From assembly GCF_963506605.1 (NCBI RefSeq), contig NC_083277.1, forward strand, positions 33,542,001-33,606,000: 64,000 nt of DNA, written 5' to 3'. Positions 11,972 to 56,239 of the stretch are shown here, in pieces. The notes beneath the pieces were generated by a model, which was not told where the DNA came from, ran no database searches, and saw nothing but the letters and a program-made list of their open reading frames with translations. Positions within the stretch are counted from its first letter, which is position 1. The number at the start of each line of letters is the position of its first letter. The translations under genes and the position numbers were made by a program. The stretch comes from Zootoca vivipara. Taxonomy: Eukaryota.

Positions 11972-12656
11972 ACTGTAAGAAAGACATGACACCCCCTTGG
12001 GATCAAAATGGCCACAACTTTATTGATCACAGATGTAGATCAGATTTGGCAGAGGCACTGGGTGTGTATTCTGAATCAGCCAACCTGGTTGCTCATCTCC
12101 ATCAATGTCTGTCCAGGTGAGAGGATATCCTCCACTGATGCAGTTCTGACAAGGAAATCCCACCAGGATGACATTCAGCTCCCATCTAGGCTTTTGGGCA
12201 GAATTCCTACCCTTGGACCTCCTTACCTGGGTACCCCGAGTTCACCCTGGAATTTTGGGGATGGGCTACCCGTCCTGCTAGCTTTTGACTAAGGTTCCAA
12301 TCCGATGCCTTTTCCCTCCAAAGTTGTGATAATTGCTATGAGGGAGGCAAAAAAAACTCCAAATAGCCCAATACATGTGCAGGTAGATTCCCTTTTTGGC
12401 CCCAAATACAGTGACTGGAAATTTCCCCAGCATGCATGCACTGCCCATTTTCCACTGGGCAGAGCCACAAAATACAACCATTTTGGACACTGCTAGCACA
12501 GCCAACTTTTATGCCCCACAATCAGACCAGATTGAGAACTGTCCCTGCCAGGTCCCCTCTTTTCTGGGTCTCTGAGTAGCCCATTTAAATTTTAATTAAT
12601 TGGTGGGCAATCCTTGCAGCCAGCCTAGGCCAGTCCTGATGCCAGCCGGCCACACA
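11972..12656 (-). mobile_element. Degenerate solo LTR of the AATAAAGTTGTGGCC family
   Basis: Shares the polyA-signal block GGCCACAACTTTATTGAT and the internal AAGTTGTGA..TTGCTA.GAGG.AGGC block with 40955-41666 and 53865-54620. Boundaries approximate. Confidence 0.6.
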
Positions 12657-38960: not shown

Positions 38961-40954
38961 CTCCATCTTTGAAAAACTATGTTTGGATATAACAGCAGCA
39001 AGCATTTTATATGACTTTTACAGCATCAACGGGGAATCTGAGGCATTCCAGATGTTGTTGAATTATAACTCACATCAGTCCCAGTCAACCTGACTAATTG
39101 GTTAGGAACAATGGGAGTTGCAGTCACACAACCTCTGTAGGGCTACAGGTCCCCCCCCCATCCCTGTTTTAAGGAATGCATCATCTTAAAGTCTATGCAT
39201 GTTCACTCATAACTTAAGGAAATTCAACTCTATTCAATAGACCTTAAGCCCAAATAACTGTGGATGAGATTGCAGCCTCACAGTGGAAGCCTATACATGC
39301 TTACTCAAAAGTAAAGACCCTTGCACTTGATGTAGGTTGCAGTCAAGTAAATGATAACTTGAGAGGCACCCGAACCTGTGCCAAAGAAGTCACACCGAAG
39401 TCACATTTCGGTCCACCAACAGTTTCCTCCTCCATCACTATTCAGAAGCAAAAGGGTGAATTTTAGTAACCTATTGAGCAAACTCACCCTTTGTCCTCTG
39501 CCAAACAAACATGAAGGGGTGAAGTGGGTAGCAAAGGTGAGGGATGAGAAAAAGGTCCATTGAGCTCCCTCACCTCACCACCCCAGATTCATCACCTCCC
39601 TACCATCAGGACCAGGGTCTCTGCTCTGCTCTGTGCAGCTGCAGAATAGAACGAGTCAAAGTCATTCTCTTTCTGCTTCACAGAAAATACTCTGTCCCAT
39701 TGACATAGCAGGCATCCATCAGATCCTTTTTAACAAAAAGCAGCAGTGGCTGAGGCTTTTATGAATCAGCCCTCTGTGTACAGCTGCCTTGCTGGGCGAG
39801 GGATACTAAGCACTGACTTATTCATGACTTTTCAGCAAACTACCCCCCCCCCCCCTGTTCCCAAAAGAAAGAAAACAGAGTTTTATGGGAAGCTTTTTTT
39901 AATGCTGCTATTTCCGGTTTAGCCGAGGCTCCAAGCACCAGGAGTGTTGCTTGCTCATAGTCCAAATACGGCTTTCGTACGCAGGGAGGAATGGCAGATT
40001 CCTCACACAGCAGAACCATGCAAGCTATGAGAGGAGTCCATCGCAATCAGTATTGCCAGTATCTCAGCAAATGGATCCCTCTCCTTTATTCTTCTAATAA
40101 TTTGCATCCTGATATTTTCCCCGCTTACAAATGAATCGGCCTTGATTGTTCCAGCAATAGCAGGAAAGAGTCATTTAAAAATCTGCCGGCATCAGACTGT
40201 GATAATCTTACACTAGAGATATGTAATGGGGCCTGCCAAGAAAGTGTCCATTGATGGAAAAGGCCCTCCACATCGCTAATGAGGTGTAGGTGCTGGCACT
40301 GTAGATAAGATGCCTATAAAGCGCTCACTTGATAGAGCGCATGGACCAGAATGGTCCTTAAGTGCACCAAGTGGCCACTATGCCTTATAATTGGAGCCAA
40401 TAAAAAGGAGTGTTTGTTTAAAGTTTTAGTGGAGAACTGTGGAAAGAGAGGCAATAAAGCAGTTGCCAAAATTAATGTGCAGAGCGAATTTTGTGAGTTT
40501 GTTTGTGCTGGGTTGTTATTAATATTTCTTCTATAATATATGCATTTCGCTTGATCCAACCCCGCAACTTTTTATTCACAACTGGCAGATAAATTAAACT
40601 TATTACAGCTAATTAACGCAAGCAAATTGCTTATTTATTCTTTGATATTCAAATGGATGCTCTTTGTGCTTTTGATCCAGTGGTGATGTCCACTGGTGTA
40701 AGAGGAGGATAGTTTCCCTTGTCACTGCAACCCCCTAAACTACCTTCCACCTTGTTTTGCAGGGTCATCTCACCCTCAGAAGCTGATTCTGGGTGGTGGG
40801 CATTAGTTAATGTTTTTTTTTTCAGTTGCTGACGTTTTAGGGAGTGATCCTCCAAATCCAAGATCCATTTGGGTTTGGATGAGTGAGTGAATCTCCAACT
40901 CAGCAGGCTGATTCTTGGCATAGCCAGACTACAACTCATCCAAGACAGCAATTG

Positions 40955-41666
40955 TGTGGCGAACCCCGATGCCTCCCCAGAATGAATAATGACACAGGAC
41001 ACATGGCATAAGGTCAATGGGCGTAGAAGGCCACAACTTTATTGATTACGGATGTAGAGAGGTATTGGCATAGGCATTGGATCTAACCGTCTATATCCGA
41101 CTCCAGCCCGCTGTGCTGGCAGTCTGTGAAGGGTTAACCACCGTTGGGTGAGCCCTGTGATGCACATCAACTGGGAACTCACCCTGGGGCCACCGCTAGG
41201 GGTCGTGCCTTTAGGCCCTCACCTACCACGGCTTCGGACTTGGCCACGCCCCGGACTCCTTAAGGGAGTACCCTTCAGCATTTTGGAGGAGGTGATGGCA
41301 GCAACCTCCCCCCCCCACCTGTAACCTTTCAGAGATAATCCAATGCCTACCGCCAAAACCAAAGTTGTGACGAGTTGCTACGAGGTAGGCGAAAACCACC
41401 AGGCCAGAGCCAATTTGCCCAGTGGGAAAATTCCTACCAGGCCCCTCAACGGCGACCAACTGATGTCCATAGCAATGTCAAATGAGAGACCTGCCTAAAG
41501 GGAGGGTGGGTGGGAAAACGAAGCAGCTGGAGGTTAAAATGAGGAGAGAGGCAGATTCCCGGCCGCGGGCTTGCTTAAATCAGCAAGCCGCGCCCCCTTG
41601 GAACGTCCTGATTGGATGCCAATGGGATGCCACCACCCCCCCACGTGTCGGCCTCATGGGCCCACA
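40955..41666 (-). mobile_element. Solo LTR (AATAAAGTTGTGGCC family)
   Basis: TGTGG...CCACA termini. On the minus strand CCAAT, a GC-rich stretch, TATA-like ATTTAA and AATAAA occur in promoter-to-polyA order. CpG-rich; no clean TSD found. Confidence 0.7.
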
Positions 41667-41785
41667 ACTTTCACTCCTCCTTACGGCGGAATGGACTGAA
41701 TTTGACAACATCAGGGTAGTATCACAGAACTGATAAAGTGAAAGGATGTGTGACTAGTCCAGCATAAATCCACCACTAATGTATA

Positions 41786-53238: not shown

Positions 53239-53864
53239 AAGAGAGTCTGCAATGTGCAGTGCTTTTGTGTCCTTCTTTACACTAATTGTCTTCCTCACAT
53301 TACCTTATAATTCCTAACCAAAATAACATGACCTATTTGCTACCAGAGAAAAGGTTGCCCCCTACAGATATATTTTAGAGGGGGTAATTCAGAATATGGA
53401 AAGGAGTTATTAGGACAGGGGGGAAGAGACATTCTATTAATTGTAGATGTACTGCAGGGCCGGCCCACCCATGAGGTGAGGCGAGGCATTTGCTTCAGGT
53501 GACAGATCGACCTCCTCTGTCACTGCCCTCTGCTGTGCTCCTTACTCCGTGTATACCTCCCATCAGGCTATATGAAGGACCATATTTTCCACATGAAGCT
53601 GTCCAGGCTCTACGGTAGGATCTTTGGCGGTGGCCTTTCTCTCAGCTCCTGCACCATCACAGCCAAGGATGGTTCCCAGGCTTTCAAAATCCCTTCCTAG
53701 AGCGCCTTAACTGGCTCCCTCCTTGTTTTCCCTCTGCTGGCAGCAGCTAAATGCCTTTTTATTCTGACAGGCTTTTGGGGGAACTGACTGCTTTTAAGGA
53801 GTGGGCTCTTAACAGTGTGCTGTTTGTATATAAATCGGGTCCTCCCTCACAAGAGGGCACGTGC

Positions 53865-54620
53865 TGTGGTGGGACCTGGCAACCAGACCCTGTGTTGTGG
53901 GTGGGAACATTGGAGCGGCCACAACACCCTATTGGTGGTCCCTCGATCTTGGGTGCAATTGGGCCTGAGGGACGTCAGTCAAAGCGATCGAGGGACCACT
54001 ATTTAACCAGATGCACGTGTCCCTGAGCTTCCTCTTTCGGGCTCTGTGCATCGGAACGCCCGCCCACCTCTCCCTATATTTAGGGCTTTTGCTTGACCTT
54101 GCTATGCCGTCGTGTGTCGCCTGTCGTTGGGACAGGGGCACGACAAGAAGTTCCCCCACCTGGCTGATTGGCTGGTGCCACTGGGGTTTCGCCTGTCGTG
54201 TAGCAAATCATCACAACTTGTAAGGTTGTGGATAGGCTCTGGTTCAGGTGGACAGGGGTGGCAGGATGCCTAGCCATCCCTATGCGTTGGGTATTCCTTT
54301 AAGAAGGAATCCACGGACTCATGGTTGGTTTTCCCTGTGAGGGGTTGTGCCCTGTGCCTGAGTCCAGGGTTCATCTGGGTGGAGGCCTAGCAGGGCTCCT
54401 GCTTGCCACTGTCCCAGCTGTTCACCCAAGGCTGACTTATGGTTGGTGCCCAGAGTCAGCACAGCCTGCAGGGCTGCAGGTAGCTAGTCGAATCAGAGTC
54501 TATGCAACCACTCACTTGATTGTAATCAATAAAGTTGTGGCCGAAATTCTGCCAAAAACCAAACCAAAAATTTGAGTCTTGTCTGAATTTATTTCTGGGG
54601 GTGGTTAAAATGTCTCCACA
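53865..54620 (+). mobile_element. Solo LTR (AATAAAGTTGTGGCC family)
   Basis: TGTGG...CCACA termini. ATTGG, CRE-like GACGTCA, TATTTAA and AATAAAGTTGTGGCC occur in order. CpG-rich; no clean TSD. Confidence 0.7.
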
Positions 54621-56239
54621 TGCAACTACTACATCTGTGTTTTAATACATATTTTAAATTTTTTTTTCCACTGATAATTTAATTATTTTTTAACAATAAC
54701 CTTTACATATTTAGCTATGTGTGTTTTTATCTGCATTTGCTTTAATTTTTTTGAGCCTCCCTGAGTCCTGGTTCTTGACTCTGAATATAGTAATGAAAAA
54801 AATGTCAAAGAAATCATTGCCATTTCACTTATAGGTCTAGATCTGAGCAGGCCTTTTGCATCTGGCCAGGGAATGACATAAATGAAATTGTCCTTTGCAA
54901 GCTTCCTTGGACCTGTCCTTCCCCTCCCTACATCCCCACCCAGTCTATCTTGCAAGAGACTCCAAGGTATATGACATTAGAAAGCTGGTGCAAAAGAGCA
55001 ACTATTAGATTAGTGCACGTTTAATACTTATGTAATAAATGTCTTTTAATACTAAATTGGAAGGTCAAAATCTTTGGTGGACGAAATGAAATAATCTTAA
55101 TGAGAAGTCAAATTGTATTTTATACTTCACTGATAACTGCCAGACAGATCAGCCGCCACCGGCAATTACTGATTGCTTTTTGTTCGTGGATGTTTTTTCT
55201 TAAAAGGAAGAAAATTAGTGATGAAGGGACTGATTTTTTAAAATTATAACATTTATGTGGCAATAAAAAAAACTGGCACAAATGCTGTCCAAGTGAGACT
55301 ACACTTTGTATCCTGTTTAAAAGATAAATGAAGGAAGGTTGTAAGTGGTTGGGTTCCACATGTTTTTAAACTATGGAATCAAACAGAATCTGAATGAAAA
55401 ACTGAAATAAATCTTTCATTTTTACTGAACTGAACTGGAAGAGAACTTAACAGCTAATTGACAGTCTCTACTGAACTTGATACAGAATAGACCAGCAAAG
55501 GAAAAACGAGTTTGTTGGTTCCAAATAAGGGTTTGACCAAAAAACACCTGATTTGCTCCCCCAAATCAGAATGTGCGAATGAAATAAAACCAACATGTGG
55601 GTGCTTTCCCACTGTCTCAGGAGACGGACAGAATACCAATATCCAAGTTGCAGTCTGGTAATGACAGCAGTAGCCAATGTAGTACCTTCTAGATATTGTT
55701 AAACTACAGTTCCTGTCGACCCCATCATGGTTGGGAACAATGGGAGTTGTAGTCCAACAATATCTGGAAGGTACCAATGTTAGCTACCTCTGCTAATGAT
55801 AAACCTTTTTGCTGATGCTTGTCCTGAGCCACATGGAGATATCTTGGAGGAGCTAGCAGGCCAGAATGGGCACAATGGGTCTTGCAGGTGGTCCTGGATT
55901 GTTCAGGGTGTCAACCCTGGGGACAAGGGGTTGTCCAGCCCACAGACACTTCTCAGCATCCTCATGGGGTGTGTCAGCCATTGGATCAACATCTTAGTTC
56001 ATCTGGCCATGCATTACATCTGATGCACTTTTAACCCTCCCTTTGTCTACATTCCGTAATGATCTGAGCATTACAGTTTGGGCTCAAAACCGCAATCCAG
56101 GTTCCAGTTGCTCATCCACCACAAGGTTAAGGGTGTCTAGCTCATCCTAAAATAAGTTTCCTATACTTCTTTGCCTAAGGATCAGCATAAAAGCAAATAA
56201 AAGGAGAGAGGACCTAACAGACAAGATGTTAAGCTGTAT

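What the first reader, a model, noticed from the sequence alone, without database searches (positions are those of the whole stretch)
41384..41438. Covarying U-rich internal-loop hairpin (ENE / triple-helix-like) conserved in three divergent solo LTRs
Seen, in LTR sense orientation: copy B (41384-41438, minus) reads GGTAGG-AATTTT-CCCACT..AAATTGG..GGTGG-TTTTCG-CCTACC. Copy C (54139-54200, plus) reads CACGACAAG-AAGTT-CCCCCA..GATTGG..TGGGG-TTTCG-CCTGTCGTG. Copy A (about 12341-12395, minus) is a degenerate GGGAATCT..TATTGG..GGAG-TTTTTTTTG-CCTCCC. The outer stem changes sequence between B and C but keeps its pairing (C has one mismatch). The opposed U-tracts, the apical ATTGG and the following TAGCAA..TCACAACTT block are retained, although much of the rest of these LTRs barely aligns. 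The motif lies downstream of the TATA-like box and roughly 300-350 nt upstream of AATAAA, so it would be transcribed. Known: U-rich internal loops between helices (ENEs of KSHV PAN, MALAT1/NEAT1, and plant and fungal transposon RNAs) clamp poly(A) in a triple helix and stabilise the RNA. Inference: a candidate RNA-stability or export element in a lizard LTR family. Function is untested, and copy C has short U-tracts.
Basis: partly seen in the sequence, partly recalled or inferred. Interest (0 to 1): 0.7.

Follow-up and report, generated by a model that had tools for sequence, protein, structure and literature searches.

The report
Ngaro retrotransposon three-way RNA fold
These repeats are leftover ends of a Ngaro jumping gene, not LTRs, and very different families keep the same predicted three-armed RNA fold with a U-rich loop, which likely grips and protects the RNA's poly(A) tail, though that is untested.

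Summary
The hairpin is real, but the repeats are not LTRs. They have no target-site duplication and no TG..CA ends. They are solo A-spacer-B units of Ngaro tyrosine-recombinase retrotransposons. In full-length elements the hairpin occurs once, in a unique spacer between A2 and B2 (16 of 16 elements with B2, 0 of 4 without). It is one arm of a ~120-nt three-way junction whose lower stem covaries between subfamilies. Intact copies show 42 G-U and 0 A-C pairs, pointing to sense-strand RNA. Helices P5 (covarying) and P4 (invariant, weakly supported) would fold the poly(A) site back beside it. Family RNA is sense-biased in 2 of 3 runs and ends about 26 nt after AATAAA. The loop is GG-AH-U3-5 opposite U3-7-CG-CC: ENE-like, but often only three U per side and offset by two extra bases. 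Best reading: a poly(A)-clamping stability element (about 0.45). Main rival: a Gag/RT recognition signal (about 0.25). Function is untested. Rfam and my paper searches found no description. This scan noted the same fold before on other DNA (this genome and others).

The parts
40952..41699 (-). Copy B: solo A-spacer-B unit of a Ngaro-type retrotransposon, ending CACACAA, with a short deletion near its 5' end relative to most family copies
   Evidence: 70-72% identical over about 500 nt to the A2-spacer-B2 end of YR elements
41575..41580 (-). TATA-like ATTTAA in repeat A of copy B; in full elements repeat A ends about 60-65 nt after it
   Evidence: A1/A2 boundaries
41494..41512 (-). Pyrimidine tract and TAG|G, a splice-acceptor-like site at the start of the spacer (use not shown)
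   Evidence: 10 of 13 representative copies have YAG|G with 12 or more of 15 pyrimidines, against 90 of 4320 background windows
41361..41484 (-). Three-way-junction RNA domain of copy B: P0 from 41479, P1 41475-41468 with 41382-41375, P2 41457-41440, P3 41438-41384
41384..41438 (-).
41362..41371 (-). P4 5' arm GTCACAACTT at the spacer/B boundary (B begins near 41356)
   Evidence: (preB1 junction reads at 41356)
41340..41349 (-). P5 5' arm TAGGCATTGG at the start of repeat B
41071..41080 (-). P5 3' arm CCAATGCCTA
41030..41043 (-). AATAAA (41043-41038) overlapping the P4 3' arm AAGTTGTGGC (41039-41030); family RNA ends near 41012
53832..54625 (+). Copy C: solo A-spacer-B unit of another subfamily (TATA-like 54000-54006, AATAAA 54528-54533)
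   Evidence: C-like B repeat follows a YR and hydrolase-position ORF in L128
54090..54220 (+). Three-way-junction domain of copy C, with the hairpin at 54139-54200 carrying private substitutions
12320..12442 (-). Decayed domain of copy A (older subfamily; AATAAA at 12024-12019; outer ends of the unit not mapped)

Best explanation
The three repeats are solo A-spacer-B remnants of Ngaro retrotransposons, and the hairpin is one arm of a conserved predicted three-way RNA junction whose U-rich loop likely clamps the poly(A) tail in a short triple helix and so would protect RNAs that end at repeat B2. Shown: element identity and layout (A1-ORFs-B1-A2-spacer-B2), one copy of the domain per element, compensatory changes between subfamilies, G-U without A-C pairs in intact copies, sense-biased family transcription, and an RNA end about 26 nt after AATAAA. 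Predicted: P5 and P4 fold repeat B out as a large loop, so the tail starts about 15-20 nt beyond P4, next to the junction. Inferred and untested: 3-5 U.A-U triples form on the in-register U-tracts, with the invariant G-C pairs, the A and the CG below them serving as A-minor or pocket contacts, and this slows deadenylation.
For: The U-tracts are in register on both strands. The shorter tract has a mode of 3-5 U in every subfamily group, and the two strands lengthen together, which fits a stackable triple helix better than a fixed-size protein pocket (inference). The G-C pairs bordering the loop are almost invariant (62-63 of 65 rows) while the rest of the lower stem swaps freely: U-A, C-G and A-U at one position; G-C and A-U at two others. 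Flanking G-C pairs were essential in the Evade ENE (PMC12501189, first 10,000 characters read). RNAalifold found the junction unprompted, and single-sequence folding gave P1+P3 in 10 of 11 copies. Full-length copies: 261 of 264 cells paired, 42 G-U, 0 A-C. P4 and P5 formed in 12 of 12 solos tested, with P5 covarying. Reads: 120 vs 3 and 50 vs 1 sense-biased depth at 41372-41397 in X16 and X17, with coverage ending at 41010-41030. An acceptor-like site precedes the domain in 10 of 13 rows, so it may also sit in spliced mRNAs.
Against: No binding or stability test exists. Three of eight groups (C, A, short-apex Y4-Y6) have only 3 U on the shorter strand; this includes L123, which has open ORFs and 99.3% identical B repeats. 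Two extra bases (A-H) lie between the lower stem and the 5' U-tract; from recall, KSHV and MALAT1 ENEs have extra bases only on the 3' strand (the MALAT1 2-nt bulge is in PMC6379651 passages). P0, P1 and P2 with its bulged G are as conserved as the loop and have no counterpart in the ENE descriptions I read. P4 never varies, so it has no covariation support, and the spacer-to-poly(A) duplex alone is no better than shuffles (36-135 of 200). 'Pairs with a change on both sides' was not above control on the unfitted alignment (8 vs 7.2; 189 of 500), and the shuffle control ignores relatedness. Run X18 showed no sense bias (7 vs 10), and 0 raw reads were 99% or more alike to window copy B itself.
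Confidence: 0.45

Rival explanations
1. The junction is a cis-acting replication signal: Gag or RT binds it to select the RNA that has read through B1 and ends at B2, the only form that carries the B1|A2 junction needed to rebuild both ends.
For: The domain lies only in the unique A2-B2 spacer (16 of 16 elements with B2, 0 of 4 without). The whole junction, with a bulged G and an invariant A and CG, is conserved, as expected of a protein-recognition site. How DIRS-order elements start reverse transcription is unknown (PMC7192593 passages).
Against: U-tract length and the apical stems vary widely. The A2 promoter and the acceptor-like site would put the domain on short or spliced RNAs too, which is awkward for a genomic-RNA tag. 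Self-priming at the loop or at P4 is disfavoured: unique bases downstream of both (for example 6 nt in Y3, about 4 in Y2) are inherited and could not be copied from such a primer (inference).
Confidence: 0.25
2. The domain is a 3'-end-processing module: with the acceptor-like site, P4 and P5 it defines the terminal exon and favours cleavage at B2, while a different helix formed at B1 hides the first poly(A) signal.
For: B1 forms a long helix with the end of the hydrolase ORF, -40 to -63 kcal/mol, 0-2 of 200 shuffles in 7 of 7 elements, with different sequences in three subfamilies. At B2 the same stretch is predicted to be open. The acceptor-like site is conserved.
Against: The predicted cost of opening the AAUAAA was higher at B1 in 7 of 13 elements and higher at B2 in 6 of 13, so there is no consistent hiding. 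This reading does not explain the U-rich loop itself. No spliced junction into the spacer was seen.
Confidence: 0.15
3. The domain is a nuclear-export or localisation element bound by a host protein (CTE-like).
For: Unspliced retroelement RNAs need export (general knowledge). The position in the 3' region fits.
Against: No Rfam match. The loop is U-rich and variable in length. No positive evidence here.
Confidence: 0.1
4. The pattern acts as DNA (inverted protein-binding sites such as NF-kB-like or CCAAT boxes; labels recalled) or is neutral, and the fold is incidental.
For: GGAATTTTCC and ATTGG resemble transcription-factor sites (recall). The domain lies about 140 nt downstream of a TATA-like box.
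Against: Compensatory changes, 42 G-U against 0 A-C in intact copies, four nested helices kept across barely alignable families, and ATTGG missing from 15 of 16 full-length elements.
Confidence: 0.05

Closest known systems
Ngaro superfamily of tyrosine-recombinase retrotransposons with SGNH hydrolase (Xenopus DIRS-53_XT, PMC9210276, first 10,000 characters and passages; solo AB repeats of Cafeteria Ngaro, PMC8547959, passages)
   Same: A1-ORFs-B1-A2-B2 split direct repeats, overlapping RT and YR ORFs, a hydrolase-like ORF after YR, solo AB units; A about 225 nt here against 236 bp in DIRS-53_XT.
   Different: Here a unique 160-nt spacer (about 370 nt in L123) with a structured RNA lies between A2 and B2, and B is about 395-445 nt against 152 bp. 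The word 'spacer' and the phrase 'secondary structure' do not occur in PMC9210276.
Single-domain ENE (KSHV PAN) and transposon ENEs such as Arabidopsis Evade/Copia93 (PMC12501189; reviews PMC7583470 and PMC13541005, passages)
   Same: U-rich internal loop between short helices, G-C pairs flanking it, 3' location in a retroelement RNA, in a spacer before the terminal repeat as in Evade.
   Different: Two extra bases on both strands below the U-tracts, often only 3 U per side, a single loop set in a three-way junction, about 330 nt from the poly(A) site and predicted to be brought near it by long-range helices. Host is a non-fish vertebrate YR element; the 2020 review lists only stickleback retroviruses among vertebrate transposable elements. 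Function untested.
Double-domain ENE with pocket motif (rice TWIFB1; review passages only, primary papers not held)
   Same: Conserved non-U bases next to a U-tract might form a tail-end pocket, as in the lower dENE domain.
   Different: Only one U-rich loop; no adenosine triad or pocket was tested.

Membership tests
LTR retrotransposon / ERV solo LTR | TG..CA termini and 4-6 bp target-site duplication | tested here: not met
   0 of 25 and 0 of 21 parsed copies with an exact duplication; ends AA..CAA
LTR retrotransposon / ERV solo LTR | The whole repeat flanks an internal region on both sides | tested here: not met
   The only close pair (L032/L033) is a tandem segmental duplication holding a LINE; in YR elements the repeat is split
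Ngaro YR retrotransposon | Split direct repeats A1..B1-A2-B2 | tested here: met
   B1/B2 at 99-100% in 16 of 20 fetched elements; A1/A2 in 6 of 20, whole in 2 (fetch edge cut the rest)
Ngaro YR retrotransposon | RT and tyrosine recombinase ORFs, overlapping | tested here: met
   RVT_1 in 3 of 3 RT ORFs scanned; Phage_integrase in the 1 YR ORF scanned
Ngaro YR retrotransposon | Hydrolase ORF after YR and no methyltransferase (against PAT-like) | tested here: inconclusive
   Lipase_GDSL_2 E 1.3e-6, below its curated cut-off, in 1 of 3 fourth ORFs; no methyltransferase family hit in 9 proteins; no RT tree was built
Ngaro YR retrotransposon | Window copies belong to these families | tested here: met
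   29 of 30 YR loci carry the window repeats downstream, 17 of 30 already showing the split order within the 1.5-kb flank; relatedness is 70-78%, and no full-length member of the exact B or C subfamily was fetched
ENE stability element | U-rich internal loop with U-tracts on both strands between helices | tested here: met
   Modal shorter tract 3-5 U in all groups of 88 parsed copies; loop open in the folds except decayed copy A
ENE stability element | G-C pairs directly adjacent to the U-tracts (A-minor receptors) | tested here: inconclusive
   Upper CC:GG and lower GG:CC are near invariant, but A-H and C-G sit between the U-tracts and the lower pairs
ENE stability element | Close to the poly(A) tail of a real transcript | tested here: inconclusive
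   About 330-370 nt away in sequence; predicted to be adjacent through P5 and P4; RNA end seen near 41012; P4 lacks covariation
ENE stability element | Binds poly(A) as a triple helix | not testable with these tools
   needs melting, gel shift, probing or a structure
ENE stability element | Raises the level of an intronless reporter RNA | not testable with these tools
   needs a cell assay
Any curated Rfam family | Match at gathering score | tested here: not met
   0 in the window; in 6 loci none of 10 weak matches is an ENE-type family and all are below gathering score

The most novel reading that the evidence does not exclude
A new class of tail-clamping RNA: a single U-rich loop with a built-in A-H/C-G pocket, held in a three-way junction and docked to the poly(A) site by helices spanning 300 nt. 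It would be the first ENE-type element in a tyrosine-recombinase retrotransposon and in a tetrapod mobile element, present in thousands of solo copies that could stabilise host transcripts ending in them, and possibly a module shared with CR1 LINE 3' UTRs of other vertebrates (recall and earlier scan notes; not shown here).
Probability: 0.3. Interest if true: 0.8.

Novelty: new variant of a known kind. Interest (0 to 1): 0.6.

Why it matters
Almost nothing is known about the cis-acting RNA of DIRS-order elements; even how they start reverse transcription is open (PMC7192593). A 120-nt fold kept across all Ngaro subfamilies seen here, in the one stretch unique to B2-ended RNA, gives a small, defined target for bench tests. 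If it clamps poly(A), it extends ENE biology to a new element order and to tetrapods and shows that three U.A-U triples plus a scaffold can suffice. If it binds Gag or RT instead, it is the first replication signal mapped for Ngaro. It also corrects the annotation of thousands of 'solo LTRs' in this genome.

Tried and rejected
LTR pair: L032/L033, 9978 bp apart, proved to be a tandem segmental duplication containing a LINE. The same fold outside Ngaro in this genome: one pattern gave 0 matches; another gave 17, of which 16 were Ngaro spacers and 1 unrelated. I recall a similar hairpin in CR1 3' UTRs of turtles and frogs, but that is recall only, and a paper search listing offered nothing on it. 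Scans of viral contigs (19 matches) and metagenome contigs (9 matches) gave only chance-like hits without the flanking helices. The covariance model could not be run over the whole genome, so non-Ngaro carriers were probed by exact patterns only. Consistent hiding of the B1 hexamer: not found, 7 of 13 against 6 of 13. Self-priming at the U-loop or at P4: rejected by an inheritance argument. Splicing into the spacer: no joint seen in 6% of three runs. Run search: no RNA holder listed; only laid raw reads were used as evidence. One search used a mistyped structure string for its first 8 pairs and was redone. The primary ENE papers (Tycowski 2012 and 2016, Torabi 2021, Conrad 2014) are not held, so ENE geometry rests on reviews, the Evade paper and recall; their figures and supplements may list a Ngaro or reptile element that I could not see.

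Full report
Observation. Alone, hairpin B folds well (z -2.72), C weakly (z -1.90) and A not at all (z +1.50). The window has no Rfam match. Each copy belongs to a large family in the window's own 1.44-Gb genome: 3349, 4256 and 269 first-look candidates for B, C and A, of which 40 each were scored. A loop pattern has 2870 exact matches against 44 for the reversed control.

What the repeats are. They begin AA and end CAA and have no exact 4-6 bp target-site duplication in 25 of 25 C and 21 of 21 B copies whose ends parsed (of 29 and 30). The one close pair was a segmental duplication with a LINE. A search for tyrosine recombinases gave 62 matches. Of 30 loci fetched, 29 carry the window repeats downstream and 17 show them in split order. 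Of 20 longer stretches, 16 have B1/B2 repeats of 394-445 nt at 99-100% identity, and 6 show A1/A2, whole in 2. ORFs carry RVT_1, Phage_integrase and, weakly, a GDSL hydrolase. This is the Ngaro layout (PMC9210276, first 10,000 characters and passages), and solo AB units are known from Cafeteria (PMC8547959, passages). Repeat A ends about 60-65 nt after the TATA-like box in all 6 cases. A unique spacer of about 160 nt follows A2, and the hairpin lies in it, directly before B2. The model finds it once in each of the 16 elements with B2 and in none of the 4 without. The window copies are A-spacer-B solos, 70-78% like these elements; I fetched no full-length member of the exact B or C subfamily.

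The fold. I added a 3-pair P0 by eye. Of 677 cells 91.9% pair, against 35-56% when partners are slid. 50 cells change on both sides, against 17.5 in shuffles (0 of 500). The count of pairs with such a change was not above control (8 vs 7.2; 189 of 500). On 65 distinct rows fitted to the model it was 13 vs 9.1 (7 of 500), which leans towards the model. These controls ignore relatedness. The honest unit is the subfamily: one lower-stem position holds U-A, C-G or A-U, and two hold G-C or A-U, which needs at least four double-sided events in that stem. Single-sequence folding gave P1+P3 in 10 of 11 copies and the model P2 in 8 of 11. In 12 distinct full-length copies 261 of 264 cells pair, with 42 G-U and 0 A-C, which points to the sense RNA strand. 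Window copy C's unusual stem is mostly its own decay. ATTGG is absent from 15 of 16 full-length elements.

The loop. In 88 parsed copies (4 misparsed; subfamily labels set by rule, a few misfiled) it reads GG-A-H-U(n) opposite U(m)-CG-CC. The shorter tract is modally 3 in C (27 of 30), A (7 of 11) and the short-apex group (5 of 5), 4 in B (22 of 27), D/F (4 of 4), Y3 and E, and 5 in Y1/Y2 (5 of 5). The U's start at the same offset on both strands.

Long-range helices. P5 closes repeat B with clear covariation (AGGCATTGG:CCAATGCCT, AGGCTCTGG:CCAGAGCCT, AGGCGTTGG:CCAACGCCT, AGGCTTTTGG:CCAAAAGCCT). P4 pairs CACAACTT with the AAGTTGTG that overlaps AATAAA. Both formed in 12 of 12 solos, and both P4 arms are intact in 25 of 30 B and 26 of 29 C copies. 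P4 never varies, and the spacer duplex alone is no better than shuffles (36-135 of 200), so it is the weak link. At B1 a different, much stronger helix with the end of the hydrolase ORF is predicted (0-2 of 200 shuffles, 7 of 7). It does not hide the hexamer consistently: opening costs more at B1 in 7 of 13 elements and more at B2 in 6 of 13. An acceptor-like YAG|G precedes the domain in 10 of 13 rows against 2% of background windows; no spliced read was seen.

Expression. About 6% of three raw RNA runs was laid on copy B at 82% likeness. X16 and X17 are strongly strand-biased (120 vs 3, 50 vs 1 at 41372-41397), in the sense direction under the usual library convention; laying on a + strand element gave the mirror result. 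Coverage stops at 41010-41030, and 5 molecules end at 41012 in X16. X18 was weak and unbiased (7 vs 10). No raw read was 99% or more alike to copy B, so the window copy itself is not shown to be transcribed. Reads from several subfamilies are pooled, so the start of these RNAs cannot be read off.

Mechanism. I commit to a poly(A) clamp at about 0.45. ENEs are U-rich loops between short helices with G-C pairs beside them (PMC7583470 and PMC13541005, passages). The Evade ENE sits in a spacer before the terminal repeat and needs its U's and flanking G-C pairs (PMC12501189, first 10,000 characters and passages). The conservation pattern here fits that, and variable tract length fits a stack of triples. 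Against it: often three U only, two extra bases on the 5' strand, a conserved junction that known ENEs do not need, and no assay. The main rival is a Gag/RT recognition signal marking B2-ended RNA (0.25); priming is unknown for this order (PMC7192593, passages). Self-priming at the loop or at P4 is disfavoured, because unique bases downstream are inherited. It works like an ENE on present evidence; membership is untested on both functional features.

Novelty. Searches for Ngaro with secondary structure and polyadenylation (2 irrelevant hits), ENE with DIRS and triple helix, three-way junction with ENE terms and ENE with transposable (4 listed, none on Ngaro by title or abstract start) found no description; I saw listings only for these. 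The 2020 review names stickleback retroviruses as the only vertebrate transposable elements with ENEs. The primary 2016 survey was not held, so its tables may bear on this. After I had formed this reading, the scan's index showed the same fold noted in another piece of this genome and in other genomes. These are unchecked AI notes and no independent support. My one search does not bear out their claim that the first poly(A) signal is consistently hidden. Verdict: a real, apparently undescribed structured RNA of Ngaro elements, a new variant of a known kind, interest 0.6.

Noticed in passing
L125, L127, L130, L133, L135, L137, L123 (end of hydrolase ORF with repeat B1): The last codons and stop of the hydrolase-like ORF are complementary to the 40 nt before AATAAA in B1, with different sequences in three subfamilies, so identical B1 and B2 are predicted to fold differently.
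   Followed up: partly
window 41494-41512 (-) and the same place in most subfamilies; several repeats in L123 spacer: Conserved splice-acceptor-like pyrimidine tract and YAG|G at the start of the spacer; an acceptor-like site also precedes the hydrolase ORF in L092, L096 and L120.
   Followed up: partly
directly before B1 in L123-L141: A short strong hairpin flanked by a repeated TGGCGG marks the 5' boundary of B1 in every subfamily seen.
   Followed up: no
B1|A2 junction, e.g. L125:6960-7010: Inverted repeat around the junction (CACAA at the end of B, TTGTG about 30 nt into A, enclosing a further stem), a candidate recombinase attachment site; the same CACAA/TTGTG word recurs in P4, so a DNA-level role of that word is possible.
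   Followed up: no
L122, L128, L129, L132: 4 of 20 YR elements end after B1 and lack A2, spacer and B2; in L132 and L134 the element abuts a 146-bp tandem array.
   Followed up: no
L091 (G000:C11:22045300-22054900): A 10-kb tandem segmental duplication (99.3% over 3.4 kb compared) holds a LINE with open 306-aa and 990+270-aa frames.
   Followed up: partly
G000, 62 places: Many YR frames of 330-336 aa are open and B repeats are 99-100% identical, so several Ngaro subfamilies spread recently.
   Followed up: partly
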